Shown here piece by piece: positions 11,001 through 32,972 of a stretch of DNA of 33,292 bases. This DNA is from Candidatus Thorarchaeota archaeon. GTDB lineage: Archaea; Asgardarchaeota; Thorarchaeia; Thorarchaeales; Thorarchaeaceae. The stretch is from contig JAEORO010000157.1 of the NCBI GenBank assembly GCA_016840855.1, positions 1-33,292 on the forward strand. Reading direction: 5' to 3'. Position 1 is the stretch's first letter; every line of letters starts with the position of its first letter. The notes beneath the pieces are model-generated. The model did no database searches. It had not been told where the DNA came from and was given only the letters and a program-made list of their open reading frames with translations. Position numbers and translations under genes: made by a program.

Positions 11001-14000
11001 GATTGTGGTAGACAGGAATGCAACATGGTGGCACTCATTCACCACTGTCAATTTATCATCATTTGTTGATACTAGCACTAATACAACCTACCTCTACAAT
11101 GTCAGTCTTGTGTCAAGTGAATCTACCTACGGTATAACCGCTTTTAGCACAAACACTCTACAGGTCACCTGGTCTCTCGCACCTAATGAGGTTCCAGTGA
11201 ATGATTTTGGCCCAGTTCTTACGAACGCTGATGATACTGACTATCTATACGCTCGATATCGATACTATGTGATTACGACATCTGTGAGTGATCTTAATGG
11301 ATATGCGGATATTAGCTATGTTGAGTTAACACTCTACTCTGATGACCAGCTTACGCAATACTGGACTGTGCGATATACAGTTGGAACGGGCATCTTCTCA
11401 GTGGAGTCTGGTGGCACGAACATAGCCATCGGTTCAGTGTCTAACGCTGTTGGTGTTGGAGATACGCTGACCATTATCTGGTACATCAAGATCAACTGGG
11501 ACCATCCTGATGTCGTAGATTCAGATGTCAATCAGTATGTCACTGATGGGACTGCAAGTAATTCAGACTTCTATGAGAGTAACTGGAATGTCGAAACTCG
11601 TCTTGATTACTCTGTGTTTCCCGCATTGTCTGATGACCGTGGAGATATTAATACTGGAAACCTATTTGGGACTGGAGCGGTAACATACTATGGCTCTAGT
11701 ATAAGTCCTCGCTCCAATGAAACTGATGTCTGGATTGTTCATGATCTTGCGGGGACTTGGAGTGGAAACCTCCTAGCTGGTAGTTTCAACATCTCAAGCA
11801 TAAGCTCAGCAGCAACAGTCCGAATGAACACCTATACATTCAAGATTGTTGCCGAGGGTGTTGGCTCAGGTGGCACAGACCTCTACTATACAACAAGCCT
11901 TACAGACACTTTCGTCACTGATAGGATCGAGATTTATGAGGCTGGTGTAGTTGACGGTAGAATCAACATCAACTCTGACTGTGAGGTCTGGTGGAGAGCA
12001 AGGTATGAGTATAGCAGCACCGAGATACAGAGTGGGTTGGCAATTGAGCTCGTTGGATCAAAGATTCTTGTCTGGGATGCAGGTAATCTCTACTGGAGAT
12101 GGATAGAATCTTCAATCATTCCTGATTTGGTAGAATTTGAAGTTGCATCTGCAAGCGAGTCGACATATGGGCTTACTGCATGGTTCAATACAACTCCTGT
12201 ACAGCAAGTCATATGGGACTCTCTTGTCATAACAATAACTGACCCTATTGACCAGAGGATAAATGTTGGCGCAAACGCATCAGGTATTGTTGTGAGTGCA
12301 GTCTACGCCTTTGATGGTACTCCCTATGATGGGAGCTTCATTTTGAACAATACTAACTACCAATACGCAACCCCACAGATTCAGGGTTATACCGTTCTAA
12401 GTTGCTCTGGCGATACATATGACATTACAGCGATTGGAATCAATGATGAAACATATTGTATATGGGATAGAGTCTTTGTTGTTTCATTAGATGCTGATGA
12501 ACTCTATCACGACCCCAACGATGATGTGATTATAACAGTTGAGCTTCAGTATGAGTTTGATAGTTCCTCAGTTGAGGACGGTATGTTTTTGATTGCTGGT
12601 CATCCACTCACTCATATAGGCTTAGGCATCTGGGAGGCGCAAGTCACAATAGCTGACTATCAAACGATAAACTTTGACAGCTTCACAATGTGTAATGCTA
12701 CAGTTCATGGCATTAGTGCATACAACATGAACAGCAATGGAGTTGCAGTATATTGGGACCGTCTCGAATTCTATTCGGTATCAGTGGATGATGGTAGAAT
12801 CAATGTCGGATCTTCATCCAATATTCAATGGAGTGTACGATTAGAGAATGCTGGTGTTTCAATCACATCTGGTCTCACAGCAGAGATGACTGGTGGTATA
12901 ACTCTCACTCCATCAGCTGGTTTCTATACTGCTACCGTCACCGAGGGTGTGATTGGAAGTGTATCCTATGGTATTTTGACAGCGACAATAGGGGAGATAG
13001 ATCAATTCACACAAAGTGCATCTGATGCTGTTGTCATCTGGGATAGAGTATCAGTCGCATCCATTCAAGCATATCCTCTCTCCTTGGACGCTGCTACAGC
13101 AACAGAAATTCGAGTCACACTGGTCTATGAGTTCGACTCTACTGAAGTCACAGACGGTGAGGTCTATCTAAATGACAACGGTGCATCTGTAGCAATGTCC
13201 TACAATTCTGCTGGTGGTTACTGGAGTGCATCCATCACGAAAACTACTGCTGGAAACTACACCTTCATTGTTGGAACAGTTCTGGGCAATACTCACGGCA
13301 TCTCTTCTCTTAGCACAGGTGGTTTAAGTGTCGAGGTCGAATGGGTAGCTGTCCCAGGATTCACAATTGACCCCATGACACTGATGCTAATCGGTGGTGT
13401 TGGCATTGGAGTCATTGGTGCTGCAATTGTAGCGTCGCGTCGTGGAAAACGCGGAGATGCTGCCGCGGTTAGCGATGTCGAATTGGCTGATTTCGGTGTT
13501 CCGGAACCTGCTGAACCTACGATAGCAGCTGAGCCAGAAATTGTCGAATCCGAAGCTGAAGCAGTCTCTGAAGAAATAAAGGCCGAAGAAACTGAACTAA
13601 TTGAGCCAGAGGTGTCTGAAGTGCCTGAAATAGAAGCTGAATCAGTCGAGGAAGTGGTTGAGCTTGAAGAGGTTGAACTTCCTCCTGTCGATGAAGAGAT
13701 TGGAGCAGATATAGCCATAATTGAACCTGCAGCTGAAGTAGTTGAAGAAACTCCAGAAGCGGTTGAAATTGAACTTCCTGAAGCCAAAGATTTGGAAATT
13801 GAAGCTGAACCTTCTATTCCTGAAGAGCCTCTTACAGAAGTAGCACCAGAAATTGAAGAGTCAATAGACGAAGTAGAAGTCAAACCTGAGTTTCCGGAAT
13901 ATGAAAAAATCCCGGAGGAGTTCATCGAACCAGCACCTGAGGTAGATTTGACAAAACTGACAAAGAAAGAGCTCCTTGATTTGATTCCTGCAGATATTAG

Positions 14001-14088
14001 GGAATCCACATCACCCAACGAACTCAAACGACTAACAAAACAAGAACTGATCAGTCTCGTAGAATCTTTCAGAGATGTCGAGGAATAG
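2005..14088 (+). CDS. Giant (4027 aa) repetitive cell-surface glycoprotein/adhesin-like protein with signal peptide, C-terminal TM anchor and long acidic cytoplasmic tail
   Basis: Uninterrupted 12-kb ORF. N-terminal MRK plus hydrophobic signal, D/T/S/V/W-rich beta-type repeats with many N-x-S/T sequons, TM MTLMLIGGVGIGVIGAAIVAS followed by RRGKRG, then an E/P-rich tail. Confidence 0.9.
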   Translation: MRKNVLVLAFVVSLFGIGLIIPNTNFDASQSFLNKPQLFTTSGIGDNNEDYVDQLSNLHLPSDIGTHDVFNDLLAHDTNYDSLTEANQGSAGNDVLDTVDSDVTDIDSNPDIGTQGTFVNVQDLGDADYMSVQEADVGFAGINENLDCNGYDGTYSAWTFAGASPYLDAVDYTTNYIYTSGDNNNVGYFTFPSTSLTSGSATVTLYVYCMSGDGNDLASVYYNVGAGDIDTGVDVCDQTNWQYDTVNLGTLTAAQINALSIRFTSVRSPPGSEIRIDYIYINVFAAAVPDYELEFEYQFTSVDFNEVNEEVCINIQSATQGTEELEVYEWDGVSSWALLGTLNSDGWNNFTASYITSVTYYIEIRDNERTDETTQSIWNIDSIILHLWTVPTLDYELDLEVGWTAADFDEANEELCIFPVTGGGWPSEDIIVDVWNGAWTTVFADLTPDQWNNVSISSYLTGSAFEIRFLGGTETGDTTQSTWEIDAVLIHTWTPSYIPANDQAPTLDNPSDTDNMYAQYQEYQVTVYVSDQNGYADIDYLEIGLWDNTRATEYCRFRYDEDTNTFTEEYDAGTYVTLNTGSSTATESGNDIDATFYFTIDWDFPDSTDLDANCSVIDTQTESVTTWYEVNWDVETRLDYSVFPSINDGSGTADRGDLDGSFSLTGTVIYYNSVDVYPSSTAVDVWVSSTEYGSTVGPWSDLTLTSGAFDVTCYADDAVGQDTYTIKVVEEGAGSGGIDLYYTTSYTDTYIADRVQVQLYSVVDDRIDVSTSVNVDFTLYYDYDNSPVLDGTVSLNLISATDLGSGVWRITDSETTATSNTYNIVSYSGGTHGISVVDQNGLSQQVIWDEIVVQTTVADDIRVNVGDNVEIRVTLWLAYDNTFLGSGDTVTLAGQAMTWDDGNSWFDLTVSQATVGIWSYFVNSSSETTYGISALDTNSQSVGVVWDQIVVQTTVADDTRVNVGNNVEIRATLWLAYDGTFLGSGDTVTLAGLAMTWDAGNSWFDLTVSQAAVGVWIYFVNSSTETNFGITAIDTNSQSVGVVWDQIIVQTTVADDTRVNVGSNVEIRVTLWLAYDGTSLGSGDTVTLAGQAMTWDAGNSWFDLIVSQASVGQWTYFVNSSSETAFGITALDTNSQNVDVIWDQIVVQTTVADDTRVNVGDNVEIRVTLWLAYDNTFLGSGDTVTLAGQVTTWDAVNSWFDLSVSQASVGLWNYFVNSSTQTGFGITALDTNSQNVDVIWDQIVVQTTVADDTRVNVGSNVEIRVTLWLAYDSTFLGSGDTVALAGQAMTWDAVNSWFDLTVSQASVGLWNYFVNSSTQTGFGITALDTNSQNVDVIWDQIVVQTTVADDTRVNVGGNVEIRVTLWLAHDSTFLGSGDTITLAGQVMTWDSVNSWFDLIVSQASVGRWNYFVNSSAETTFGISLLDPNSQSVGVIWDRIVVQTTVVDDSRINVGANAEIRVTLWLAYDSTFLGSGDTVTLAGQAMTWDVGNSWFDLSVSQLSVGLWNYFVNSSTDSTYGITLIDTNSQSVGVVWDQIIVQTTVADDTRVNVGSNIEIRVTLWLAYDSTFLGSGDTVALAGQAMTWDAGNTWFDLTVSQASVGLWNYFVNSSSETSFGITALDTSSQSAGVVWDQIAVQTTVADDARVNIGANVEIRVTLWLAYDNTFLGSGDTVTLAGQVMTWDSTNSWFDLTVSQASVGIWNYFANSSSEATFGITLLDTNSQSVGVVWDQIVVQTTGTDDTRVDIGANAEIRVTLWLAYDNTFLGSGDTVTLAGQIMTWDAGNSWFDLTVSQMSVGLWSYYVNTSSDATYGITLLDTNSQSIDVIWDQIVVQTTTADDTRVNVGNNVEIRVTLWLAYDGAFLGLGDSVNVAGQAMTWDVGNSWFDLTVSQASVGLWSYFVNSTSETTFGITAFNINSQGVDVIWDQITVQSTVAIDNRVNVGSNVEVRVTLQLAYDNVFLGSGDTITLDGQTMIWDSVNSWFDLDVTQASVGHWNYFVNSSVEATFGISLLDTNSQSVGVVWDQIVVQTTVADDIRVNVGANAEIRVTLWLAYDNTFLGSGDTVTLAGQAMTWDAGNSWFDLTVSQASVNLWNYYVNSSSDSNYGITLLDTNSQSVGVIWDQIVVQSTIADDTRVDIGANAEIRVTLWLAYDNTFLGSGDTVTLAGQAMTWDAGNSWFDLTVSQASIGLWNYFVNSSSEATFGISLLDTNSQSVGVVWDQIVIQTTVADDARVGIGDNVEIRVTLCLAYDSTFLGSGDTVTLAGQVMTWDAGNSWFDLSVSQLSIGLWTYYVNSSAQTGFGITTLDTNSQSVNVIWDQIVITIGVDDSTPLNGIQVNFTLAIMFDYDNIACTTYQIVIQRNSTWWHSFTESNKSQFIDTNSDTSYTYTVMIVTSESTYNVLSFSTNSQQVVWSAAPNSAPVNDSAPDLANPDDTDNLYARYTYYVITSSVSDIDGYNDIEYIELTLYDNSRASPVWTVRYTVSGNIFSVESGSTYITLSASSFAVGAGNNLDVTWYIKIGWDHSDLTDVDMKQYVYDGIIGDEDFYESNWDVETRLEITGLTIDDGSGTSNRGPLDGAFTVSGTLIFLNSVDNYPLGNETDVWVSSSEYGTSTGPWSDLTLTSGQFSLTVYADDEVGQDTLTIKAVVEGGGSSGTDLLNSTAQSTYIADRIAVQSYAALDPRININDAATIDVELLYEYDSSPVMNGSVTINGIAATHQGSGTWRFSDTKSSVQSFTYNVVAYSGGIHGLNQVNQNAMTQDVIWDQIVVQTTVANDTRVDVGANVEIRVTLWLAYDSSFLGSGDTVTLAGSAMTWDFGEGRFELIVSQASVGSWTYFVNSSSESTYGITSLNLSGSNVSVIWDRIQVQSYSMSDGRVNVGESVDIDVNLYYDYDDSPVTDGTITVNGAIATHQGTGLWRFSDSEVVVVMNTYNLVVCSGNIYGLTAVDQNSQSLNVIWDQLVIVIGVDDPSSLNGHQANFTLSVTFDYDDSVCTTYQIVVDRNATWWHSFTTVNLSSFVDTSTNTTYLYNVSLVSSESTYGITAFSTNTLQVTWSLAPNEVPVNDFGPVLTNADDTDYLYARYRYYVITTSVSDLNGYADISYVELTLYSDDQLTQYWTVRYTVGTGIFSVESGGTNIAIGSVSNAVGVGDTLTIIWYIKINWDHPDVVDSDVNQYVTDGTASNSDFYESNWNVETRLDYSVFPALSDDRGDINTGNLFGTGAVTYYGSSISPRSNETDVWIVHDLAGTWSGNLLAGSFNISSISSAATVRMNTYTFKIVAEGVGSGGTDLYYTTSLTDTFVTDRIEIYEAGVVDGRININSDCEVWWRARYEYSSTEIQSGLAIELVGSKILVWDAGNLYWRWIESSIIPDLVEFEVASASESTYGLTAWFNTTPVQQVIWDSLVITITDPIDQRINVGANASGIVVSAVYAFDGTPYDGSFILNNTNYQYATPQIQGYTVLSCSGDTYDITAIGINDETYCIWDRVFVVSLDADELYHDPNDDVIITVELQYEFDSSSVEDGMFLIAGHPLTHIGLGIWEAQVTIADYQTINFDSFTMCNATVHGISAYNMNSNGVAVYWDRLEFYSVSVDDGRINVGSSSNIQWSVRLENAGVSITSGLTAEMTGGITLTPSAGFYTATVTEGVIGSVSYGILTATIGEIDQFTQSASDAVVIWDRVSVASIQAYPLSLDAATATEIRVTLVYEFDSTEVTDGEVYLNDNGASVAMSYNSAGGYWSASITKTTAGNYTFIVGTVLGNTHGISSLSTGGLSVEVEWVAVPGFTIDPMTLMLIGGVGIGVIGAAIVASRRGKRGDAAAVSDVELADFGVPEPAEPTIAAEPEIVESEAEAVSEEIKAEETELIEPEVSEVPEIEAESVEEVVELEEVELPPVDEEIGADIAIIEPAAEVVEETPEAVEIELPEAKDLEIEAEPSIPEEPLTEVAPEIEESIDEVEVKPEFPEYEKIPEEFIEPAPEVDLTKLTKKELLDLIPADIRESTSPNELKRLTKQELISLVESFRDVEE
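4546..8955 (+). repeat. 15 tandem intragenic repeats of exactly 294 nt (98 aa), probable Ig-like beta-sandwich modules
   Basis: The TGG of W-D-[QER]-I-x-x-Q recurs at 4546, 4840, 5134, 5428, 5722, 6016, 6310, 6604, 6898, 7192, 7486, 7780, 8074, 8368 and 8662; the next, different module starts at 8956. Consensus WDQIVVQTTVADDTRVNVG.NVEIRVTLWLAYD.TFLGSGDTVTLAGQAMTWD.GNSWFDL.VSQASVGLW.YFVNSS....GIT.LDTNSQ.V.V. Confidence 0.95.
10300..10593 (+). repeat. Isolated 16th copy of the 98-aa repeat
   Basis: WDQIVVQTTVANDTRVDVGANVEIRVTLWLAYDSSFLGSGDTVTLAG..., 294 nt to the next WD at 10594. Confidence 0.9.
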
Positions 14089-14099
14089 TCCAAGGCATA

Positions 14100-14123
14100 A
14101 GGAGCTCGAATGTTCGAGCTCCT
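14100..14123 (+). terminator. Perfect inverted repeat just downstream of the giant gene (putative terminator or mRNA-stabilising hairpin)
   Basis: AGGAGCTCGAA-TG-TTCGAGCTCCT, 11-nt arms, 11 nt after the TAG stop. No clear U-tract. Confidence 0.55.
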
Positions 14124-14171
14124 AAATGTTTACGAAACCTTTTCATGAGGTGTGATTAGGAATATATTACA

Positions 14172-14510
14172 ATGTCTGGTCAGACAATATCAAGTTCAAA
14201 ATGCAGTATGTGCAACAGAGTGATTGTTCCCCCTAGAGACACTTGTCCCTTCTGTGGAAAGAGTGCTGGAACAATGAAACTTTTGGAGTTGCCGCCCAAG
14301 GGAAAAATTCAGAGTTATACGACTCTCCAGATGCCTCCAGAAGGTTTCCAAAGTCCGCTTTTAATGGCCCTGGTTGAACTTGACCATGGTGCATTAATTC
14401 TGTGTCTCGCAAGTGAGTCGAATGAACAGTCTATGAACATTGGCGATGATGTTGAGATTGCGCTCGACTCAGAAAAGAGATTCTGTTTTCGCCTTATCAG
14501 TCCAGACTGA
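14172..14510 (+). CDS. DUF35-family Zn-ribbon/OB-fold protein (thiolase/aldolase partner)
   Basis: CSMC...PPR..CPFC zinc ribbon, then G-KI-SYT...PPEGF-SP...ALVELDHG OB-fold and IGDDVE. Confidence 0.9.
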   Translation: MSGQTISSSKCSMCNRVIVPPRDTCPFCGKSAGTMKLLELPPKGKIQSYTTLQMPPEGFQSPLLMALVELDHGALILCLASESNEQSMNIGDDVEIALDSEKRFCFRLISPD

Positions 14511-14568
14511 GTGCATTGGCAGCTATGTATTTTAGCAGGTATTCTTCTAGAAAAACTAGGTTTCAACG

Positions 14569-15738
14569 ATGGTTGACTATCTTTCTAATGCACTTTGGAC
14601 TGATGACGAAATCGTCTTTCGAAAAGAAGTCCAGAATTTCTGTGCCAAAGAAATTACTCCAATTGCAGATGAGCTAGACAAAGGACCCTATCCACGAGAA
14701 CTTCTTCGTAAGATTGGAAAGGCTGGATATATGGGTGTCCACCATGATAAATCAGTAGGTGGAACTGAACGAGGACTCTCCTACGAGATTATAGTAGCAG
14801 AGGAAATTTCTGCTGTTAATGGTGGTCTTGACATGGCTCGAATGGCATCTACTACTCTTTACGGTATGCCAGTAGCTCGTTTCGGTACTGCTGAACAAAA
14901 GAGAAAGTATCTGGAACCAGTGGTTGCTGGTGATAAGATTGGGTGTATAGGTATTACTGAACCCGATGTCGGTAGTGACACTGCTGGTATGAAGACCAGA
15001 GCTGAAAAAGATGGTAGCGACTGGATTCTCAATGGTGAGAAACGATTCATCACAAATGGAAGTCAAGCCGACTATATGTGTGCCTTTGCAATTACAAATC
15101 CAGCGGTGCATGCTAAGGACGGAATGTCCGCGTTTATAGTTGACACAAAAACAGATGGCTTTAGTGTTGTACAGGACCATGATCTTCTTGGAATGAAGTC
15201 TGCAAGAGTGTCTTGGTTGAAACTAGAAGATGTTCGCGTGCCAAGTGATATGATGCTAGGAAAACCCGGCCAGGGCTTTCACATTCTAATGGATGAATTA
15301 GACTCAGAAAGAACTGCCATCGCTGGAGAAGCCATTGGTTATGCAAGGACACCATATGAGATTGCAGTAAGGTATGCAAATGAGCGTCATCAATTTGGTC
15401 GACCAATCCGAGCGTTTGAAGGTATCAGTTTCAAAGTCGCTGATATGGCAATGAAACTAGAAGCTGGTCGTGCTCTCACATTGACTGCTGCGCGTATGTA
15501 TGACCGTGGAGAGAATATAACCAAACAAGCTTCTATTGCAAAACTATACACAACAGAAGCTGCAATTCAAATCACTAATGATGCATTACAGATTCTTGGT
15601 GGTATGGGGTATACCACTGATTATCCTGTTGAGCGATTCCTTCGAGATGCAAGATTAATGACAATTGGTGGTGGAACTGTAGAGATACTACGTTTCCTTA
15701 TACAAAGAGAGGTTTTCAAGGAGTTCTTCCCAGGATAG
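14569..15738 (+). CDS. Acyl-CoA dehydrogenase, isovaleryl-CoA dehydrogenase-type active-site arrangement
   Basis: ITEPDVGSD, LNGEKRFITNG, R-QFGRPI, QILGGMGY, ERFLRDAR. C-terminal IGGGT (no MCAD-type Glu), with the Glu instead in helix G (ELDSER). Confidence 0.92.
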   Translation: MVDYLSNALWTDDEIVFRKEVQNFCAKEITPIADELDKGPYPRELLRKIGKAGYMGVHHDKSVGGTERGLSYEIIVAEEISAVNGGLDMARMASTTLYGMPVARFGTAEQKRKYLEPVVAGDKIGCIGITEPDVGSDTAGMKTRAEKDGSDWILNGEKRFITNGSQADYMCAFAITNPAVHAKDGMSAFIVDTKTDGFSVVQDHDLLGMKSARVSWLKLEDVRVPSDMMLGKPGQGFHILMDELDSERTAIAGEAIGYARTPYEIAVRYANERHQFGRPIRAFEGISFKVADMAMKLEAGRALTLTAARMYDRGENITKQASIAKLYTTEAAIQITNDALQILGGMGYTTDYPVERFLRDARLMTIGGGTVEILRFLIQREVFKEFFPG

Positions 15739-15775: not shown

Positions 15776-17563
15776 TTAGTTCTTTATAATGGCGATAATT
15801 CGATACATGTCACCCACTATTTGAATCGTGGCAGTGAAATTGTCACTGACATCGAGGTCGTTGAGCAGTGTGTACCAATCTGCAAGATTCATCCAGTCAC
15901 GTGCTCCCTCAATGAATGGGTACGTGACATTGTCAGTTCGTAACACAATATGAGTATCTCCATTATCAACATATGATGTCTTATTGACGACATTTGCTGT
16001 GAGGTTGAATGTCCCTGTAGGTTCAGGTTCTATAATACCTCCAAGAAGTTCCACATACGATGAACGGACTGAATATACAAGATCCTCTCCAGAAAGTGTT
16101 CCTCCAAGAGGTTTCCACACAAATCGGTCGATGTTTGAAGCATCTACCATCCCCAAAGCGTGAAGACGCATGTTTGTTGCGGTATATTCCTCGAGGTCTT
16201 CATCATAGTAGTAATCAGCCCAATAAATTGGACAATACCAAGTCCACTTTGTGAGGGTCGAATTAATCGCAACTGGATAAAGCAGGGGCATTGCTCCATA
16301 GTACATTCCACTAGCTGGGGCACCTATATCTGCAACTACATTTGCAGCAGCCGCGTCACCACTGACATAACCCTCGTTGCTAAGGTCATGATAATAGACT
16401 GCGTCCTTTGTTGCTCTGAACACACCAGCTAGTGTTCTAGTCGCTGTCACAGGATGCACTGCGATGAATGCTTCAATTCTATCAGTATCAGGGTTGATTA
16501 TATAGCGTGTGTCTTCATGTATTTCCAATCTGTCATTGGATGGAGGAATGAACCATAGAAGTCCACCTGCAAAGAGGTCGAATCCATCTCCGCGTCTATA
16601 TCCTCCCCATCTTGATATCTGGCGTTCAAGCCACTCTTCTCCATATGCTTGGGTGATCCAATCAGGAGTTTCTTCGATAGTATCATAGCTAAAAACAGAA
16701 CCGTTCTCTGCGTACACGATGGGGCCAATTGGTCTTTCAACAAAGTCGAATCCAAGTGGTGTTCTTGTCTGAACATAGACTAGCGCACCAGTGGGGTCCC
16801 AAGTCGGATACGCATACTGGTAACTCGCGGTCATATCATTGAGGTAGTTAGCAAACCGAATATCCTTATCCCAGAACAATCCCTCTCCAACAGGTATTGT
16901 TGTTTCTGAAATCAGATGCGGAGTCACTGATTGCGGATCATTCGCATCAACAACAATAAACCCTTTCACATAGTTCTCTGCTAGTACATTAGTTGATACT
17001 ATCGTACACACCCATACAAGCGTGCCATTTGGATTTGAGGTTATATGGGCAGCAGCAACATAGACATTAGATCCAAATGGCGAAATATGTTGAAGAGCTA
17101 CATATTTTGCATATTCCTCAGTAACCAATCTTACCTTGTCATCATCAATTGTATGATTGAAGAGAGGTTCATCAGTCATAATTATCATGCTATCAAAAAA
17201 CTCAGCATTTGTTACATCTGAAGTCCAACTGATGACCCCTGAGAAGATTGGCATAACAATCAGTATAATCAATCCAATACATGTAAGGGGCACTCTAATG
17301 CCTTCGAGTACTTGCTCAATATGTCTCCCACGAAATCCACTGGAAACAACTAGCAAAGCCGAGAAACTCATTATCAGGGCAATAATTGCCCAGGGAAGAG
17401 TGGAAACCAATAACAAGCATATGATGACCCATGCAACAGTCCCCCAAATAAGTCGAAATGGAAGCCATTTAATCAATTTACCAGGCCTCAGCATCTCATG
17501 ACTAAATGGGATTGGTATTGCATGAACTATTAGACTTATCAAAAGAAACACTAGTACATTCAT
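15776..17563 (-). CDS. Hypothetical membrane protein (about 4 N-terminal TMs plus a large, probably extracytoplasmic domain)
   Basis: 595-aa ORF with hydrophobic first ~110 aa and a Y/W/P-rich soluble region. GAGGT SD-like site upstream of the ATG. Confidence 0.8.
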   Translation of the reverse strand: MNVLVFLLISLIVHAIPIPFSHEMLRPGKLIKWLPFRLIWGTVAWVIICLLLVSTLPWAIIALIMSFSALLVVSSGFRGRHIEQVLEGIRVPLTCIGLIILIVMPIFSGVISWTSDVTNAEFFDSMIIMTDEPLFNHTIDDDKVRLVTEEYAKYVALQHISPFGSNVYVAAAHITSNPNGTLVWVCTIVSTNVLAENYVKGFIVVDANDPQSVTPHLISETTIPVGEGLFWDKDIRFANYLNDMTASYQYAYPTWDPTGALVYVQTRTPLGFDFVERPIGPIVYAENGSVFSYDTIEETPDWITQAYGEEWLERQISRWGGYRRGDGFDLFAGGLLWFIPPSNDRLEIHEDTRYIINPDTDRIEAFIAVHPVTATRTLAGVFRATKDAVYYHDLSNEGYVSGDAAAANVVADIGAPASGMYYGAMPLLYPVAINSTLTKWTWYCPIYWADYYYDEDLEEYTATNMRLHALGMVDASNIDRFVWKPLGGTLSGEDLVYSVRSSYVELLGGIIEPEPTGTFNLTANVVNKTSYVDNGDTHIVLRTDNVTYPFIEGARDWMNLADWYTLLNDLDVSDNFTATIQIVGDMYRIIAIIKN

Positions 17564-26091: not shown

Positions 26092-28059
26092 TCAACCTAG
26101 CAATCCAGCTGTCCATAAAACAATCCGTAGTCCAATGAGTGCATCATCGCCTACTCCATATTCTCCTAGCAAAGCATAATTGTCGATGAAGAAGTTGGTT
26201 CCTGTTACTACGATTCTTCCTCCACTAGTATCTTCCCTACATCCCAAAACTGGTGCTGCTGGGTGGTAGCTGGCAAGCTGAGTCCCTCCTGGAGGAACAT
26301 GTATAGTAGCTCCATGATAATGGAATCCACTTAATCCAGAGGTGATTGGGTGTGAATCAAGATTTTCAATAAGTACTGGATCCTCTCCAGAGGGTACCTC
26401 AAGACCTGTGAGTTCAAATCCGGAAAAGCTCAGGAAATCATTGACTTGCGTGATATTTGTAAAACTAGCACCAAGGGTTGCTAAGAATATTCCTCCTCCA
26501 TTCCCATAATACTGCGAATAGGCAAGTTTCTCAGCAGCAGAGAATGGTAAAGAGTAAGCACTAGTTTCTGTCGGAATGGTTTCATTAGCATCATACACAC
26601 ATGGATCAAGTATGATGACTGAATCAAATTGTTGCAAGACTGAAAGTGTTGTTGCTGTGCTGTTTCGTATTTCAGTAACAGAAATATCGTTTGAAGTTAG
26701 CTCCTTGTAGAATTCCCTAAACTGACCATAGTAGGAATCAATTGACCACGAGGTGTGACTAATATCGAAAGCAACTCTTGCAATAGCTGATGACAACTCA
26801 AATGAAATCTCAAGACTTGTCGCTCCAAAATCTGTTGATGTGAACTGAATCGTATTGTTGAGCACCGATGGTCCTGATGAAGGCATGTGCGCAATAAGTG
26901 GGATAATTTTGCTCTGATTTACTTCGATAGTCGATGGGATATCGAAAATACTTGGGGAATCTCCAGTCACTGAAACTGTGAATGTTGTGCTACCTGATGT
27001 TAGTAATCTAACATTGAAATCGTAAGTGTCATCGTAAAATAGCTTCTCATAATCGATTGGTAGAGTAGCTGGAAAAGCTAAGCTCATAGCAGGTAGCTCG
27101 CCCTCTTGAGCAGCTGCAGCAAGTATCGTTTGAGAGTTTTGAACATTCAATTTCCCAGCTCCTACTACATAACTTGGATATTCAGTCATTGGATCTGCTC
27201 CTTTCATAAGAGCAGTCATTACTGACCCTGGACTATAGGTGATATTATTATCAATAGAATATCCAATGAGTTGCGCTGCTGCACCAGCAACACGAGGTGC
27301 TGCGAAGCTTGTTCCATAATATCTTGAAGTAGAGTCTGAAACCCATCCAAAAGCGCTGATATCTGGTTTCATGTATTTGTCGAATGTTGGGCCAGTCGAT
27401 GAGAATTCAGCGGGTGTATTGTCTTCATAGAGCGCTCCAACTGCAATACATTTTTCAAAAAGGCTAGGTGATGATATACTTGTACCAGCTAAACCGCTGT
27501 CTCCCTCATTACCTGCTGAGGAAACTACCACAACTCCTTTCGCGAAAGCCCATTCAACTGCTTGTTCTAGAGGGTCTCCCAAAACTGGACTTGAACCAAG
27601 ACTCATAGTGATAACGCTGCAATTCTGTTCAACTGCCCAGTATATTGCCGCTGTTAAACCAATAGGTGTTGCCACTCCATCAGTCCCTATCACTTTTCCA
27701 TTCACAATTTCTGCATTAGGTGTTTCAGCGACGAGGGTGGCAACAAGAGTGCCATGCGGAATATTCTCTGGTCGTGAGTCTGTGGTAGCTGTATCTATGA
27801 TATCATATCCATATTGAAGTTCAACGAAGCTTTTCTCCTCAACTACACGCCCTTGCAATGTGAAGCCAATGTCTATTCCCGAATCTAGGACTGCGACTCT
27901 GACTTTCGCGTTTGGACCATCACTAAATGGACCAATTCTGACAAGAAAGACCAATCCTGTTGATATAACGAGCATAAGGATAATGACAACTGCGATTATT
28001 CTTGTTCCACTAGATTTCTGCTTCCTAGGTGGTCCGTGCCAATAGTAATCGTCAATCAT
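26092..28059 (-). CDS. Membrane-anchored S8 (subtilisin-like) serine peptidase with C-terminal Ig-like and GATase-like domains; Site-1 protease (MBTPS1/SKI-1)-like architecture
   Basis: Triad VLDSG / HGTLVA / GTSFAAP and oxyanion AGNEG. N-terminal TM after PRKQK. C-terminal VAFDISH...FREFYKEL...FDSVIILDP...GGGIF. The track starts at 28107; ATG 28059 (MIDDYY) is plausible. Confidence 0.88.
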   Translation of the reverse strand: MIDDYYWHGPPRKQKSSGTRIIAVVIILMLVISTGLVFLVRIGPFSDGPNAKVRVAVLDSGIDIGFTLQGRVVEEKSFVELQYGYDIIDTATTDSRPENIPHGTLVATLVAETPNAEIVNGKVIGTDGVATPIGLTAAIYWAVEQNCSVITMSLGSSPVLGDPLEQAVEWAFAKGVVVVSSAGNEGDSGLAGTSISSPSLFEKCIAVGALYEDNTPAEFSSTGPTFDKYMKPDISAFGWVSDSTSRYYGTSFAAPRVAGAAAQLIGYSIDNNITYSPGSVMTALMKGADPMTEYPSYVVGAGKLNVQNSQTILAAAAQEGELPAMSLAFPATLPIDYEKLFYDDTYDFNVRLLTSGSTTFTVSVTGDSPSIFDIPSTIEVNQSKIIPLIAHMPSSGPSVLNNTIQFTSTDFGATSLEISFELSSAIARVAFDISHTSWSIDSYYGQFREFYKELTSNDISVTEIRNSTATTLSVLQQFDSVIILDPCVYDANETIPTETSAYSLPFSAAEKLAYSQYYGNGGGIFLATLGASFTNITQVNDFLSFSGFELTGLEVPSGEDPVLIENLDSHPITSGLSGFHYHGATIHVPPGGTQLASYHPAAPVLGCREDTSGGRIVVTGTNFFIDNYALLGEYGVGDDALIGLRIVLWTAGLLG

Positions 28060-28256
28060 TTGTACCAGGCTCATATTGCTTTGCATGCGGCTTGTGAACC
28101 CTAACATAAGAGCACATGAACCTATCGAATACTGAACCGGAAAGCTTCAAAAGGTCCAGAAAGGAAAATGAAGATGTCGGACTTGAGGTAGGAACATTCG
28201 AGTTTGATTTATCTATGAAAGAAGTACAGCATCTATACCCTTGAGAGGTCGTAGCT

Positions 28257-31166
28257 TTGTCGAATGAAGACGCCATCACATCCGAGAACGATTCTACTCA
28301 TGCTTATCATGCATTACCTCTTGAGGAAGTCTTCGAAACTCTACGGGCTGACCCTGAAAACGGATTACCAGATGACGAAGTAAGATTAAGGATTCAAAAA
28401 TTCGGACAAAATGCTATACCAAAGATTCGTGGACCATTCTGGCAGGTGTATATTGCCCCGATTATGAACTGGCTAATCACAATTTACATTCTCAGCTCAA
28501 TAGGACTCATCATAATTGCGCAGTTGCTTCCTCCAGGTGAGAATGAGATGGGGCAAGCTTTAGTGTGGCTTGGGATTGTTGCAATTAATGCCCTGGTAGC
28601 AATCTTTCAACAATATAGAGCGCAGAAAAAGCTGGAGGCTTTAGAGAAACTCTCCGCTGGAGAAGCCCGCGTTATCCGTCAAGGTTCTGAAAAGAGTGTT
28701 CCTCCATTTGAAATAGTTCCTGGTGACATCATTAAACTCGACCAAGGGGATCGAATTCCTGCTGACGCTAGATTAATCACTTCATCTAATCTCACTACAA
28801 ATGAAGCCTCTCTGACAGGTGAGAGTGTCCCAGTAGTAAAGGATGAACAAGCGATTGTTGCTCGCGACGTTCCACTCACCGATATGAGAAACATGGTCTT
28901 TTTTGGTACATATATAGCAACAGGAATGGCTACGGTTGTAACCACTGCAACTGGAGGTCACACTGAAATCGGAAAGATTCAGGGAACTCTTGAAGCGCTA
29001 AATACAGGTGATATCCCTCTAAGACGAAAAGTCAACCTTCTGGCAAAATATCTTGGAATTGCAGCATTAATTCTCATGAGTGTATCTGTGCTATGGCAAG
29101 TCTTTGTCTTTGATTGGCTCAATGGGCAACCAATCAACCTCGGGTATGAACATGTATTAGGACAGACGCAGGAAGCAATCACTCGCGCGATGACTATTAT
29201 GCCCATCAATATACCTCTACTAACAACAATTGTTCTATTGACTGGTGTTCTAGCCATGGCAAAGAAAGGTGTCATTATCAGAGACCTATCAGCTGTAGAG
29301 AGTCTTGGTAGAGTTAGTGTCATCTGTAGTGATAAGACTGGAACAATGACTCGCAATCAGATGACAGTCAAGTATTGTTGGGATACGCACAACCTTTACA
29401 CCGTTAAAGGAGATGGATACGACCCCATTGGTGGTATCTATCTTCTAGAGGGAGCTGACGATATAATTACCCTCGAGGTCAAGGAACAAGAGGTTCGAGA
29501 TGTATTCAAATGGAAGGGCCTTTTCCGTCTTGTCGTCTGTGGTGGCATCAATAATGACTCTGAAATAGTTAGAGAAATAATTCCTGATCAAGGTGAAATT
29601 TGGAAACCATTAGGAGACCCCACAGATGCTGCTTTACTTACGTTGTTTCGCAAGAGTGGACTTGATGAAGAAGCAATATCAAAGAAATACGAGATTATTC
29701 AAGAGTTTCCATTTGAATCTGAGCTCAAGCGAATGACCAAAATTTGTAAGGATGGCAAAAAGTTCGTAGCTTTCACCAAAGGCGCAACGGAAGTTCTCTT
29801 ACCTAAATGCACAATGGTGGATGGAAAAGATTCGCCCACGAAAATTACTTCTGATATTGTGAATAAAGTCCGGACATTCACTACCGACTTTGCGTCTAAG
29901 GGTTATCGTGTCATCTCACTCGCATATCGACAACTCGACAAAGTCCCAACGGGTAACGATGCCCGCGATGAAGCTGAGAATAATCTAATCTATCTTGGAT
30001 TCGCTTGTATCGTTGATCCTCCTAGAGATGGTGTGAAGGAAGCTGTGTCTGCTTGTCATAGTGCAGGAATTAATGTGATTATGATTACTGGCGATGCCGC
30101 TGCAACTGCTAAGACAATTGCTGAAGACTTGGGCATCTTCAAAGTAAATTCACTTGTTGTTGAAGGTAGCGACATAGCTGATGTTTCTGATGACGACTTT
30201 GCCCGAACGAACGTTTTCGCCAGAGTTGACCCTGACCACAAACAAATCATTGTAGAACGGTATCAGGATCAACAACGTGTTGTGGCTATGACTGGGGATG
30301 GAGTCAATGACGCCTTAGCACTAGCCATGAGTGATGCCGGTATTGCTATGGGTATTACTGGTACAGATGTGGCCAAGGAAGCTGCGGACCTAGTTATAAC
30401 GGATGATAGTTTTGCTTCAATTGTATCCGGTGTGCATCAAGGTAGAGGTCTCTTCAACAAGATACGTATGATGATTTACTTCTATGTGGCCATCAATCTC
30501 TTTGAAAGCATTATCTTCTTTGGAGCCCTGTTCTTTCTTCCTGATCTTAGTTTCCTAGAAACTTGGCAGAGCATCTATCTCGTAGTTACAACCCACTCAT
30601 TCCCAGGTCTGGCACTTGTCTTTGATAGAACATCGCCACATGCTATGGAAGACAAACCTCGTGACAGCCAAGCACTCATCACACGTAACCTTGGAAAGTT
30701 CATGGCACTAAATGTCATTTTGATGACTATTGGAGCTGCATCAGTCTTTATGCTCACATTGACTGGCTGGGGCAGTATTGTTGATGTCTATGTTGAGAAC
30801 AACTTGGGTTTCTATGGTACAATTGATGCTCCATATAAGGCAAATGTTATGCTTTTGTCAGTAATACTTCTAGTTGAAAGTACCATAGTCCTCAGTATTC
30901 GTCGTATCAATATGCCATTGCACAAAAGTATTCGAGAACCGGGAACGTGGGTTTTTGTGGTCTTGCTGGGACTAATCTATATTGCACACTTTCTCCTCAT
31001 GTATGTGCCATTGGCACAAGAGATTCTATCTGTCTACAGTCTGCATTTCTATTTTGCACCATTAACAAGCTATGACTGGCTAATCGTGGTTCTTGGAGCT
31101 CTTCCAGCAATCATTGGCCTCGAGTTGTATAAGTGGCGTTTTAGGAACCATGATGTTGATCTATAG
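28257..31166 (+). CDS. P-type ATPase with P2-like scaffold and atypical membrane ion-binding motifs
   Basis: LTGES, ICSDKTGTMT, GDPTD, PFES, KGATE, DPPR, MITGD, FARVDP, MTGDGVNDA, GTDVAKEAAD; about 10 TMs. TTG start with GAGGT SD. Confidence 0.93.
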   Translation: MSNEDAITSENDSTHAYHALPLEEVFETLRADPENGLPDDEVRLRIQKFGQNAIPKIRGPFWQVYIAPIMNWLITIYILSSIGLIIIAQLLPPGENEMGQALVWLGIVAINALVAIFQQYRAQKKLEALEKLSAGEARVIRQGSEKSVPPFEIVPGDIIKLDQGDRIPADARLITSSNLTTNEASLTGESVPVVKDEQAIVARDVPLTDMRNMVFFGTYIATGMATVVTTATGGHTEIGKIQGTLEALNTGDIPLRRKVNLLAKYLGIAALILMSVSVLWQVFVFDWLNGQPINLGYEHVLGQTQEAITRAMTIMPINIPLLTTIVLLTGVLAMAKKGVIIRDLSAVESLGRVSVICSDKTGTMTRNQMTVKYCWDTHNLYTVKGDGYDPIGGIYLLEGADDIITLEVKEQEVRDVFKWKGLFRLVVCGGINNDSEIVREIIPDQGEIWKPLGDPTDAALLTLFRKSGLDEEAISKKYEIIQEFPFESELKRMTKICKDGKKFVAFTKGATEVLLPKCTMVDGKDSPTKITSDIVNKVRTFTTDFASKGYRVISLAYRQLDKVPTGNDARDEAENNLIYLGFACIVDPPRDGVKEAVSACHSAGINVIMITGDAAATAKTIAEDLGIFKVNSLVVEGSDIADVSDDDFARTNVFARVDPDHKQIIVERYQDQQRVVAMTGDGVNDALALAMSDAGIAMGITGTDVAKEAADLVITDDSFASIVSGVHQGRGLFNKIRMMIYFYVAINLFESIIFFGALFFLPDLSFLETWQSIYLVVTTHSFPGLALVFDRTSPHAMEDKPRDSQALITRNLGKFMALNVILMTIGAASVFMLTLTGWGSIVDVYVENNLGFYGTIDAPYKANVMLLSVILLVESTIVLSIRRINMPLHKSIREPGTWVFVVLLGLIYIAHFLLMYVPLAQEILSVYSLHFYFAPLTSYDWLIVVLGALPAIIGLELYKWRFRNHDVDL

Positions 31167-32191: not shown

Positions 32192-32404
32192 CTATTTCTC
32201 TTTCTTTTCGATTGTTTCGTTTAGCGCTTTGACTAACTGCTCCGTGTTGATTCCATGAGCTTGTGCTCCTTGCTCAATGGTTTCAAATCTAGCGGCAGCA
32301 CAACCAAAGCACATTAACCCATGTTCTAGGAATGTTCCAGCTGTTTCAGGCCATTTCATGACTACTTCGCCAATGCTCATGTCTTTCGTTACTGCTTCTG
32401 CCAT
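32192..32404 (-). CDS. DUF1858-family small CxxC protein (hybrid-cluster-associated redox disulfide domain)
   Basis: VTKDMSIGEVV.KWPETA..F..HGLMCFGC.AA.FETIEQGA.AHGI....LV..LN. ATG 32404 is preceded by a GGTGA SD, which contains the track's GTG start at 32413. Confidence 0.88.
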   Translation of the reverse strand: MAEAVTKDMSIGEVVMKWPETAGTFLEHGLMCFGCAAARFETIEQGAQAHGINTEQLVKALNETIEKKEK

Positions 32405-32485
32405 TGTATTCACCTTGTTAACAATAATTAATTGTCATAAACACACAAGTCTTGAAATCTGCGAATATATACTTTACTTTTGCTA

Positions 32486-32908
32486 CTATAACAACAAGTG
32501 GTCAAGTCCCATCTCTTTCAAGACAGCTGGATATACATCATATAGCGGCTTAATCTTTGAGAGTAGTCCTAGGGCTTTTGCTACAGAGCCCTCTAATTTG
32601 ACCTGTCCTCTTGCCATTGCCACTGTTGTGTTTAGTTTTCCTTGCCAAAACTTGTTAGTGGTTTCAGATTTTGACCAGACCGAGATTTCAGGTTCAACAT
32701 CACTATCAAATGTCAGAGTACCAATCTCACCACTTGGTCCAGGGTCTCTGAAGTTTATCGTCATATGGACTTCAGGATCCTCAACATCAAAACGAACCAC
32801 AACCTGTGATTTTTTGAGTTTCTCCATAATCTCAGCGTTTCCTCTTGCTTTAACCCAGAAATTGTTGAATATCTCCTTGAACTGCTCACTGCTTTCAAAG
32901 CCAGTCAT
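32486..32908 (-). CDS. Stand-alone SCP2 sterol/lipid-binding domain protein
   Basis: FWQGKLN..VAMARGQVKLEGSVAKALGL is the typical SCP2 C-terminal signature. GAGGAGGT SD. Confidence 0.8.
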   Translation of the reverse strand: MTGFESSEQFKEIFNNFWVKARGNAEIMEKLKKSQVVVRFDVEDPEVHMTINFRDPGPSGEIGTLTFDSDVEPEISVWSKSETTNKFWQGKLNTTVAMARGQVKLEGSVAKALGLLSKIKPLYDVYPAVLKEMGLDHLLL

Positions 32909-32972
32909 ATTTACTGACCTCCTCTAGTATGAAAGCTTATGCTCGATAGAAATCTTTTGATTTACCAAAATC

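What the first reader, a model, noticed from the sequence alone, without database searches (positions are those of the whole stretch)
28257..31166. P-type ATPase with a flippase-like TM4 (PIN for PEG) and erased Ca2+ site II
Seen: TM4 reads TIMPINIPL (29202-29210). Ile317 is exactly 42 residues before the phosphorylated Asp359, the same spacing as SERCA E309-D351. TM6 reads QSIYLVVTTHSFPGLAL against SERCA QLLWVNLVTDGLPATAL (N796>V776, D800>H780). The TM5 N/E (N747, E750) and a TM8 Glu are retained, and the cytoplasmic motifs (TGES, DKTGT, TGDGVND) are intact. Established: PEGL is near-invariant in P2 pumps, and Ile at this position (PISL) marks P4 lipid flippases, considered eukaryotic and using DGET rather than TGES. 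Inference: an active pump with a non-canonical substrate, either a P2-to-P4-like intermediate or a new subfamily. Automatic annotation as a Ca2+-ATPase would likely be wrong.
Basis: partly seen in the sequence, partly recalled or inferred. Interest (0 to 1): 0.85.

Follow-up and report, generated by a model that had tools for sequence, protein, structure and literature searches.

The report
Asgard P-type pump, rebuilt ion site
This Thorarchaeote gene encodes an intact ATP-driven membrane pump from a large, apparently undescribed Asgard-archaeal offshoot of the calcium-pump family in which one calcium site is filled in and the other is rebuilt around a histidine, so it probably moves a small ion other than calcium and nothing tested marks it as a lipid flippase.

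Summary
Window 28257-31166 (+) is a 969-aa P-type ATPase with intact TGES, DKTGT and TGDGVND. TM4 reads MPINIP instead of PEGLP, and TM6 has Val and His where SERCA has N796 and D800. The TM5 Asn/Glu and the TM8 Glu are kept.

The changes define a clade. 218 of 522 distinct P2-like sequences in hand carry the pattern. Thirty representatives at 32-64% identity form one branch (SH-aLRT 100) beside prokaryotic PEGL pumps. dN/dS against the nearest orthologue is 0.048. At least 215 of 268 Asgard genomes that are 85% or more complete carry a member; none was found in about 650 genomes of other phyla.

The flippase reading is not supported. The motor reads TGES, the P4 model scores 110 bits against a cut-off of 431, no partner gene is conserved, and the fold matches SPCA/SERCA. 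An aliphatic residue at this TM4 position is also normal in P3A proton pumps, including this genome's own.

Most likely it is a single-site cation pump for something other than Ca2+; the ion is unknown. This scan reported the same family eight times on other DNA. My literature searches found no description of it.

The parts
28257..31166 (+). Gene for a 969-aa P-type ATPase of the 'PIN/His' Asgard clade; TTG start, stop codon included
   Evidence: ORF. Five Pfam domains score above their cut-offs: Cation_ATPase_N, E1-E2_ATPase, Cation_ATPase, Hydrolase and Cation_ATPase_C. The AF2 model has mean pLDDT 83.4 and pTM 0.74.
28458..28469 (+). TM1 P68-I-M-N71. It replaces the Q-F-x-D stretch of PEGL pumps, so the TM1 acidic/polar partners of the lost TM4 Glu are gone as well.
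   Evidence: P68 in 208 of 218 PIN-type sequences, against Q in 279 of 299 PEGL-type. Position 70 is L/M/F in 199 of 218, against K in 162 of 299. The model shows helix breaks at residues 66 and 71.
28815..28826 (+). A-domain dephosphorylation motif TGES (residues 187-190)
   Evidence: G188 and E189 are invariant across the 29 aligned clade representatives.
29202..29216 (+). TM4 P316-I317-N318-I319-P320, in place of PEGLP
   Evidence: Among 218 PIN-type sequences, position 317 is I in 197 and V/F/W/L in the other 21; N318 is present in 212. The model helix is broken at 315-317.
29331..29345 (+). Phosphorylation motif DKTGT (D359)
   Evidence: D359, K360, T361, G362 and T363 are invariant in alignment A1.
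30291..30311 (+). P-domain hinge motif TGDGVND (679-685)
   Evidence: G680, D681, G682, N684 and D685 are invariant.
30495..30506 (+). TM5 N747-L-F-E750, the equivalents of SERCA N768 and E771
   Evidence: Alignment to SERCA2. E750 is present in 215 of 218 and N747 in 206 of 218 PIN-type sequences. E750 is invariant in A1.
30567..30617 (+). TM6 QSIYLVVTTHSFPGLAL: V776 at the N796 position, T779 at T799, H780 at D800
   Evidence: H780 is present in 213 of 218 PIN-type sequences. Position 776 is V/Y/F/S/I/A and never N or D. PEGL pumps have N in 287 of 299 and D in 272 of 299 at these two positions.
30876..30878 (+). TM8 E874, the equivalent of SERCA E908
   Evidence: E874 is present in 209 of 218 PIN-type sequences. 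It is lost in three loci of one Asgard family, L131-L133.

Best explanation
The gene encodes a working P2-type (Post-Albers) cation pump of a distinct subfamily seen so far only in Asgard archaea, derived from prokaryotic P2A-like Ca2+ pumps.

Shown:
- The ATP-binding, phosphorylation (D359) and dephosphorylation (TGES) machinery is intact.
- The ten-helix membrane domain is intact, with the unwound TM4.
- The residues that make SERCA site II and its cytoplasmic gate are replaced by apolar residues: the TM4 Glu, the TM6 Asn, and the TM1 Gln/acidic partners.
- The site-I set is kept (TM5 Asn and Glu, TM6 Thr, TM8 Glu). A His takes the place of the shared TM6 Asp, and a new Asn follows the TM4 Ile.

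Inferred:
- One small cation per cycle binds from the cytoplasm in this single pocket (N318, N747, E750, T779, H780, E874).
- It is occluded on phosphorylation and released outside.
- The His and Glu residues probably take up protons on the return half-cycle.

The ion is not Ca2+ bound in the SERCA manner. My rough split is a divalent transition metal or Mg2+ about 30%, H+ about 20%, and Na+/K+/NH4+ about 20%. None of these was tested. The genome also keeps a canonical PEGLP pump, a second PEGL pump, a true P3A H+ pump and three CPC metal pumps, so this is an extra, specialised paralogue.
For: - The core motifs and five Pfam domains are intact.
- It passes the general P-type model TIGR01494 (267.7 bits, cut-off 62.3). 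It fails every substrate-specific equivalog; the best are PMR1-type at 454 of 798 and SERCA-type at 411 of 703. Nine other clade members behave the same way.
- Residue equivalences come from HMMER alignments to LMCA1 and SERCA2.
- Site residues are conserved across 218 distinct PIN-type sequences, against 299 PEGL-type. Across 29 representatives at 32-63% identity, E750 and P316 are invariant, and N111, H780, P783 and E874 are at 90% or more.
- The 30 PIN rows form one clade, SH-aLRT 100, with the TM4 and TM6 motif columns left out of the tree.
- dN/dS is 0.048 against the 96%-identical orthologue.
- The AF2 model keeps the TM4 break at 315-317 and the TM6 break after H780. Its best fold matches are SPCA1, SERCA, LMCA1 and Na,K-ATPase.
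- The family is present in at least 215 of 268 Asgard genomes.
Against: - No experiment and no context clue names the ion. Neighbours are conserved only within Asgard families and include no metal chaperone, sensor or regulator of known specificity.
- The TM5-TM10 half is very diverged, scoring only 20 bits on the SERCA-type model. The pocket geometry therefore rests on alignment and an unrefined AF2 model whose coordinates I could not inspect.
- Replacing the TM1/TM4 entry residues with apolar ones is also what a pump for a non-ionic or amphipathic substrate might show.
- PIN-type proteins score slightly higher on the P4 model (98-148 bits) than four PEGL controls do (86-96 bits).
- A few members lack N318 (6 of 218), H780 (5 of 218) or E874 (9 of 218).
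Confidence: 0.7

Rival explanations
1. It is still a Ca2+ (or Ca2+/Mn2+) pump that binds one Ca2+ at the retained site-I residues, perhaps with altered direction or affinity. The P6/CtpE family, for comparison, lost the TM6 Asp yet handles Ca2+.
For: - N747, E750, T779 and E874 are the site-I ligands.
- The best family models and PDB matches are all Ca2+ pumps.
- Palmgren 2023 (PMC10654040; passages read) reports that CtpE keeps PEGL, has Ile for the TM6 Asp, and imports Ca2+.
Against: - D800 ligates both Ca2+ ions in SERCA (recalled) and is His here in 213 of 218 sequences.
- The known single-site Ca2+ pumps LMCA1, SPCA and PMCA keep site II, not site I (recalled).
- The genome already has two PEGL pumps.
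Confidence: 0.12
2. It moves an organic cation or other bulky polar substrate such as a polyamine, as P5B pumps do, through a widened and more apolar TM1/2/4 entry.
For: Apolar residues replace the polar ones at the TM1 and TM4 gate positions: P68, L/M/F70 and I317. Two Glu and a His remain deep in the membrane. The substrate is unknown.
Against: - The P5 model scores 209.5 bits against a cut-off of 618. That is no higher than PEGL controls, which score 232-274.
- There is no PP(x)LP double proline; the sequence is MPINIP.
- No polyamine genes lie nearby.
Confidence: 0.08
3. It is a prokaryotic lipid flippase, or a P2-to-P4 intermediate.
For: - Ile sits at the position of the P4 'hydrophobic gate'. 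The PISL motif is recalled; reference 171 is only listed in PMC10654040.
- The P4 model score is slightly raised in PIN-type proteins (98-148 bits against 86-96 in PEGL controls).
- The host phylum is the sister lineage of eukaryotes.
Against: - The motif is TGES, not DGET. PMC10654040 states that P4 pumps add an Asp to this motif and are unique to eukaryotes.
- The P4 model stays at a third or less of its cut-off.
- The same TM4 state occurs in P3A proton pumps.
- The clade branches among prokaryotic PEGL pumps.
- No two-helix partner gene is conserved beside it in 21 loci.
- No P4 structure appears among the 50 fold matches listed (ranks 1-50).
- Buried Glu, Glu and His are conserved, as expected for an ion site.
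Confidence: 0.05
4. It no longer transports anything and serves as a sensor, regulator or ATP-driven switch.
For: One ion site is erased. Precedents exist for debated transport roles in P-type pumps (PMC10654040, P1B and P3B sections; passages read).
Against: - All catalytic motifs and the buried polar residues are under strong constraint.
- Tandem duplicates both keep the site.
Confidence: 0.03

Closest known systems
Prokaryotic P2A Ca2+-ATPases (Listeria LMCA1, PDB 6zhf/9euq/6zhh) and eukaryotic SPCA1/PMR1 and SERCA1/2
   Same: - Same domain order, ten helices, and TGES/DKTGT/TGDGVND motifs.
- They are the best sequence matches: LMCA1 395 bits, SPCA1 361, SERCA about 346.
- They are the best family models and the best fold matches.
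- The TM5 Asn/Glu and TM8 Glu are shared with SERCA.
   Different: - TM4 reads P-I-N-I-P, not P-E-G-L-P.
- TM6 has Val and His, not Asn and Asp.
- TM1 has Pro and apolar residues, not Gln and polar residues.
- It falls below every equivalog cut-off.
- It forms a separate clade.
- LMCA1, SPCA and PMCA keep site II (recalled), while this clade keeps site I.
P3A plasma-membrane H+-ATPases (AHA2 5ksd, Pma1) and this genome's own P3A paralogue (G000 C142)
   Same: An aliphatic residue sits at the E309 position together with TGES. AHA2 reads PIAMP and the own paralogue reads PVALP. No second cation site is present.
   Different: - P3A pumps use a TM6 Asp as the proton acceptor and a TM5 Arg (PMC10654040). 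Here those positions are His780 and Phe749.
- The P3A model scores 316 bits against a cut-off of 615.5, whereas the true P3A paralogue scores 1024.6.
P6 ATPases (mycobacterial CtpE)
   Same: A prokaryotic offshoot of the Ca2+-pump type in which the TM6 Asp is replaced (PMC10654040; passage read).
   Different: CtpE keeps PEGL and has Ile, not His, in TM6. I held no CtpE sequence, so the relationship was not tested by alignment or tree.
P4 lipid flippases
   Same: Ile follows the TM4 Pro (the P4 PISL motif is recalled).
   Different: - P4 pumps read DGET where this protein reads TGES.
- They need a CDC50 partner (recalled for most P4A) and are eukaryote-only (PMC10654040).
- The P4 model TIGR01652 scores 110 bits against a cut-off of 431.

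Membership tests
P-type ATPase superfamily (HAD-IC, TIGR01494) | DKTGT phosphorylation site, TGES-type A-domain motif, GDGxND hinge, and a score above the model cut-off | tested here: met
   Motifs located. TIGR01494 scores 267.7 bits against a cut-off of 62.3.
P2A Ca2+-ATPase (SERCA-type TIGR01116, PMR1-type TIGR01522) | Score above the curated equivalog cut-off | tested here: not met
   411.2 against 703.4, and 453.6 against 798.3. Nine other clade members also score below the cut-offs.
P2A Ca2+-ATPase | TM4 PEGL with the gating Glu (SERCA E309) | tested here: not met
   I317 aligns with the Glu. The Glu is absent in all 218 PIN-type sequences, though the absence of Glu was part of how that group was defined.
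P2A Ca2+-ATPase | TM6 Asn and Asp (SERCA N796, D800) | tested here: not met
   V776 and H780 occupy these positions. PEGL pumps have N in 287 of 299 and D in 272 of 299.
P2A Ca2+-ATPase | Site-I ligands on TM5 and TM8 (N768, E771, E908) | tested here: met
   N747, E750 and E874 align with them.
P4 lipid flippase (TIGR01652) | Score above the subfamily cut-off | tested here: not met
   109.8 bits against 431.25. Other clade members score 98-148 bits, and PEGL controls 86-96.
P4 lipid flippase | DGET in the A domain | tested here: not met
   The sequence reads TGES at 187-190. The motif rule comes from PMC10654040.
P4 lipid flippase | CDC50/LEM3-type partner | tested here: inconclusive
   No conserved two-helix neighbour was found in 21 loci. 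PF03381 found nothing in the genome, but it also rang in 0 of 14 control genomes, so that search shows nothing.
P3A H+-ATPase (TIGR01647) | Score above the cut-off, a TM6 Asp proton acceptor, and a TM5 Arg | tested here: not met
   315.6 bits against 615.5. His780 and Phe749 occupy those positions. The genome's real P3A pump scores 1024.6.
P2D Na+/K+ efflux ATPase (TIGR01523) | Score above the cut-off | tested here: not met
   415.1 bits against 645.05. On the TM1-4 and TM5-10 fragments taken alone, the type IIA models still rank first. No P2D sequence was available for a tree.
P5 ATPase (TIGR01657) | Score above the cut-off; double-proline PP(x)LP in TM4 (recalled) | tested here: not met
   209.5 bits against 618.25. 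TM4 reads M-P-I-N-I-P.
P6 ATPase (CtpE-type) | PEGL kept, with the TM6 Asp replaced by Ile (PMC10654040) | tested here: not met
   PEGL is absent and TM6 has His. Kinship to CtpE was not tested because no CtpE sequence was held.

The most novel reading that the evidence does not exclude
The clade is a functionally new P-type subfamily, an Asgard-only 'P2E', whose single His/Glu/Asn pocket carries a substrate not known for any P2 pump. The boldest version is a bulky or amphipathic substrate moved along the now-apolar TM1/2/4 path. That would make it a prokaryotic functional forerunner of the eukaryotic P4/P5 'large-substrate' pumps, in the lineage that gave rise to eukaryotes.
Probability: 0.07. 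Interest if true: 0.9.

Novelty: new variant of a known kind. Interest (0 to 1): 0.55.

Why it matters
P-type pumps are sorted by the few membrane residues that choose their cargo. A whole clade that rewrites those residues in a fixed way very probably has a cargo of its own.

This clade is found in most Asgard lineages examined, the closest known archaeal relatives of eukaryotes. It is often duplicated in tandem, and it is still labelled as a calcium or generic cation pump in public records.

Finding its substrate would add a subfamily to the P-type classification. A recent review expects more prokaryotic families (PMC10654040, section 15, read in full). It would also correct ion-budget reconstructions of Asgard cells, and it would show how a two-site Ca2+ pump can be turned into a single-site pump that keeps the 'other' site.

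It does not, on present evidence, bear on the origin of lipid flippases.

Tried and rejected
1. The search for related loci on genome contigs with the clade alignment. I used 12 of those loci only as named outgroups.

2. The E <= 1e-100 tally (382 of 400 genomes) is not specific. The clade profile scores ordinary PEGL pumps at up to 894 bits and 920 bits. I replaced it with an E <= 1e-285 tally.

3. Mg2+-uptake gap-filling idea, prompted by PMC7997004 (passages read). CorA is present in 4 of 5 PIN-positive genomes, with 5 matches in this genome, and in 2 of 5 PIN-negative genomes. There is no complementarity, so I dropped the idea.

4. P2D kinship lead. TIGR01523 is the second-best model on the whole protein, but on the membrane fragments alone the IIA models still lead. 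No P2D, P4, P5 or P6 sequence could be brought in, so no tree with them was made.

5. CDC50 search. It was empty, but the control was empty too, so it is uninformative.

6. Expression. No RNA holder is listed among the 20 runs that hold the gene.

7. ESM Atlas. It returned only generic P-type clusters.

8. Literature searches found no paper on this clade. The motif-string search returned only unrelated words.

9. Complex prediction was not used, because the report claims no protein partner.
Full report
**1. Observation**

The window holds one long ORF at 28257-31166 on the + strand, 969 aa with a TTG start. Its translation carries TGES (187-190), DKTGT (359-363, D359), KGA (508), DPPR (587), MITGD (609) and TGDGVND (679-685). 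TM4 reads T-I-M-P-I-N-I-P-L (313-321). TM5 reads YFYVAINLFES, TM6 reads QSIYLVVTTHSFPGLAL (771-787) and TM8 reads LLVES.

I317 lies 42 residues before D359. The coordinates 29202-29210 given for 'TIMPINIPL' cover only P-I-N; the nine residues span 29193-29219.

Pfam finds the full P2-type architecture: Cation_ATPase_N, E1-E2_ATPase, Cation_ATPase, Hydrolase and Cation_ATPase_C, all above their cut-offs.

- Against Listeria LMCA1, 'impinip' lies under 'aipealss' and 'ylvvtthsfp' under 'finlvndslp'.
- Against SERCA2 (5mpm), 'ainlfesi' lies under 'issnvgevv', 'qsiylvvtthsfpglal' under 'qllwvnlvtdglpatal', and 'illvesti' under 'vlvtiemc'.

So I317, V776, T779, H780, N747, E750 and E874 stand at SERCA E309, N796, T799, D800, N768, E771 and E908. 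The SERCA numbering is recalled.

**2. A conserved clade, not a one-off**

The 120 closest database proteins (66-100% identical) are named, where a name is given, Thorarchaeota or Promethearchaeota. JGI calls many of them 'Ca2+-transporting ATPase'.

I looked at the 150 best of 1.84 billion 50%-identity representatives.
- 34 show P-[ILVFW]-[N, rarely M or S] at D-42.
- 4 more in the same score range are fragments, or lack an exact DKTGT, and could not be read.
- From rank 38 (P0159) downward only one more (P0160) shows it; among the rest, every single-length pump reads PEGL or a near variant (PESL, PEAL, one PSGL, one SEGL).

Twenty-nine full-length representatives at 32-63% identity to the window protein were aligned as A1. 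Within the membrane, P316 and E750 are invariant. N111, Q771, H780, P783, E874 and R882 are at 90% or more.

I then aligned every P2-like sequence in hand to the A1 profile, which gave 522 distinct sequences. Of these, 218 are PIN-type, 299 PEGL-type and 5 other. The groups were defined by positions 316, 317 and 780, so counts at those three positions are circular. Counts at the other positions are not.

| Position | PIN-type (n = 218) | PEGL-type (n = 299) |
|---|---|---|
| 318 | N in 212 | G in 276 |
| 776 | V/Y/F/S/I/A/T, never N or D | N in 287 |
| 780 | H in 213 | D in 272 |
| 750 | E in 215 | not compared |
| 747 | N in 206 | not compared |
| 874 | E in 209 | not compared |
| 68 (TM1) | P in 208 | Q in 279 |
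| 70 (TM1) | L/M/F in 199 | K in 162 |

The sample is weighted towards Thorarchaeota.

The TM1 change was not in the finding. It removes the polar TM1 partners of the lost TM4 Glu.

dN/dS against the 96%-identical orthologue L098 is 0.048. For more distant orthologues the synonymous sites are saturated, with pN about 0.1-0.24.

**3. Phylogeny**

I built a quick IQ-TREE (LG+G4, SH-aLRT only) on 81 rows and 884 columns, with the TM4 and TM6 motif columns removed. The rows were:
- 30 PIN-type sequences;
- 36 of the 98 full-length PEGL representatives (the first 14 plus 22 drawn at random);
- 12 named PEGL pumps from bacteria and other archaea;
- this genome's two PEGL paralogues;
- its P3A paralogue, used as the outgroup.

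The tree puts all 30 PIN rows on one branch (support 100, length 0.27). That branch lies among prokaryotic PEGL pumps, whose backbone is unresolved (supports 82-94).

The earliest PIN branches read PWN/PWS (P0156, P0160) and PVN/PFN (P0147, P0151, P0154, P0158), and all of them already have the TM6 His. The named nearest relatives of P0156 are Promethearchaeota and Helarchaeota, at 59% identity.

A careful search, bootstraps and eukaryotic subfamilies are missing. I could not bring in P2B-D, P4, P5 or P6 sequences.

**4. Family models**

The protein passes only the general P-type model, at 267.7 bits against a cut-off of 62.3. Scores on the specific models, with cut-offs in brackets, are all below threshold:

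| Model | Score (bits) | Cut-off |
|---|---|---|
| PMR1-type | 454 | 798 |
| P2D | 415 | 645 |
| SERCA-type | 411 | 703 |
| PMCA | 395 | 507 |
| P2C | 339 | 946 |
| P3A | 316 | 615.5 |
| P3B | 314.5 | 611 |
| P5 | 209.5 | 618 |
| P4 | 110 | 431 |

Nine other clade members give the same order.

On the P4 model, four PIN-type proteins score 98-148 bits and four PEGL controls score 86-96 bits. This is a small rise, still a third or less of the cut-off. On the P5 model there is no difference.

Taken alone, the TM1-4 fragment still ranks the IIA models first. The TM5-10 fragment matches only the SERCA-type model, at 20 bits.

**5. Ile is not a flippase mark**

The genome has seven full P-type ATPases:
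- this one;
- a canonical IPEGLPAVV pump (contig C257);
- an IPEGLIAII pump (C28);
- three CPC metal pumps;
- an 826-aa pump reading IPVALPAVL.

The last is a true P3A proton pump, with TIGR01647 at 1024.6 bits against a cut-off of 615.5. Its TM4 aligns to 'ggipiamptvl' of Arabidopsis AHA2 (5ksd, 619 bits).

So an aliphatic residue after the TM4 Pro, together with TGES, is the normal state of proton pumps. This clade lacks the P3A proton acceptor Asp and the TM5 Arg (described in PMC10654040). It has His780 and Phe749 at those positions.

**6. Distribution**

The A1 profile scores its own members at 1043-1353 bits. It scores PEGL pumps at up to 894 bits and 920 bits. A cut at E <= 1e-285 therefore separates the two groups.

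At that cut, 215 of 268 Asgard-phylum genomes that are at least 85% complete have a member, and 69 of 90 high-quality genomes do. Sixteen of the 28 family codes scored are positive, for example f1 49/57, f8 20/21, f11 12/15, f14 7/7, f21 9/9 and f22 99/106. Twelve small families are negative.

In five 'negative' families the best hits are PEGL, PEAL or PESL pumps. One of those genomes (G127) also holds a contig-truncated PWNFP...TTH member that scored only 849 bits, so the tally is a lower bound.

Outside the phylum, at E <= 1e-275:
- 0 of 251 and 0 of 151 genomes in two overlapping samples of small-genome archaea;
- 0 of 151 in the phylum of a Methanobacterium;
- 2 of 251 in the phylum of a Desulfofundulus, and both of those read PEGLP with the TM6 Asp.

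These are samples. The correct wording is 'not found in those searched'.

**7. Context**

Twenty-one loci, with about 8 kb on each side where the contig allowed, were compared by all-against-all BLASTP. Synteny holds only within families.

- In the Thorarchaeote family, 7 of 7 loci have a divergent membrane-anchored S8 subtilase upstream and panB downstream.
- In family f22, 8 of 8 loci have two PIN-type pumps in tandem, and both keep N318, E750, H780 and E874. The pair is preceded in 8 of 8 loci by a soluble 321-aa zinc-ribbon protein with no Pfam hit, and a TFIIB gene lies nearby in 6 of 8.

Nothing is shared across families. There is no two-helix membrane neighbour of the CDC50 or beta-subunit kind. 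No metal chaperone or ion sensor was seen.

**8. Structure**

AF2 run on alignment A1 gives mean pLDDT 83.4 and pTM 0.74. Helix breaks fall at 315-317 (TM4), after 780 (TM6) and at 66/71 (TM1).

Foldseek against the PDB lists SPCA1, SERCA1/2, LMCA1 and Na,K-ATPase among the 50 matches listed (ranks 1-50) (E 1e-58 to 1e-52, TM 0.59-0.77). No P4 or P5 pump appears there.

I could not inspect coordinates, so the pocket is inferred from alignment.

**9. Reading**

Site II and its gate are filled in. Site I is kept, but its shared Asp is now His, and a new Asn sits on TM4.

The most economical mechanism is an ordinary Post-Albers cycle that carries one small cation at this pocket, with His and Glu protonation on the way back.

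Two carboxylates, a His and two amides would suit a borderline divalent metal, but they are also compatible with H+, Na+/K+ or Mg2+. None of these was tested.

A gap-filling test for Mg2+ failed, because CorA is present in this genome (5 matches) and in 4 of 5 PIN-positive genomes.

**10. Known or new**

This scan has reported the same family eight times on other genomes, with the same reading. I re-derived that reading independently here.

Five literature searches found no description of it.
- PMC7997004 (passages read) says only that all five Asgard proteomes hold orthologues of a putative Ca2+-ATPase, TC 3.A.3.2.21. Its supplements were closed.
- PMC10654040 (passages read, and section 15 read in full) describes P6/CtpE and expects more prokaryotic families. 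It does not mention Asgard archaea.

**Verdict**

This is a real, conserved, apparently undescribed variant of the P2 pump. It is not a flippase on any test I could run. The ion is unknown.

Noticed in passing
window 2005-14088 (+): A single 4027-aa ORF with an ATG start and no Pfam family at E <= 1e-4: a giant orphan protein in a Thorarchaeote genome.
   Followed up: no
window 15776-17563 (-) and 32277-32927 (+): ORFs of 595 aa and 216 aa with no Pfam match.
   Followed up: no
L134-L141 (Asgard family code f22), e.g. L134:7989-10877, 11682-14549 and 14657-15622, all on the - strand: In 8 of 8 loci the PIN-type pump is a tandem pair, and both copies keep the rebuilt site. The pair is preceded by a soluble 321-aa zinc-ribbon protein with no Pfam hit, and a TFIIB gene lies nearby in 6 of 8. 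This may be a dedicated transcription factor for the pump pair.
   Followed up: partly
G000 contig C142:11543-13981 (-) = L120: The same Thorarchaeote genome encodes a bona fide P3A plasma-membrane-type H+-ATPase, scoring 1024.6 bits on TIGR01647 and 619 bits to Arabidopsis AHA2.
   Followed up: partly
L131-L133 (Asgard family code f11): These clade members keep PIN and the TM6 His but have lost the TM8 Glu; the sequence reads LYLTIPLI or LYIAIPLI. They may be a sub-type with a different stoichiometry or ion.
   Followed up: no
G301:C2:41019-41880 (-): In this small, 97%-complete Asgard genome the only CorA match is interrupted by five stop codons: 2 TGA and 2 TAA in one piece, 1 TAG in the other. 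It may be a pseudogene.
   Followed up: no
window 26092-28107 (-): A 671-aa S8 subtilase with one N-terminal hydrophobic helix sits divergently upstream of the pump in 7 of 7 Thorarchaeote loci.
   Followed up: partly
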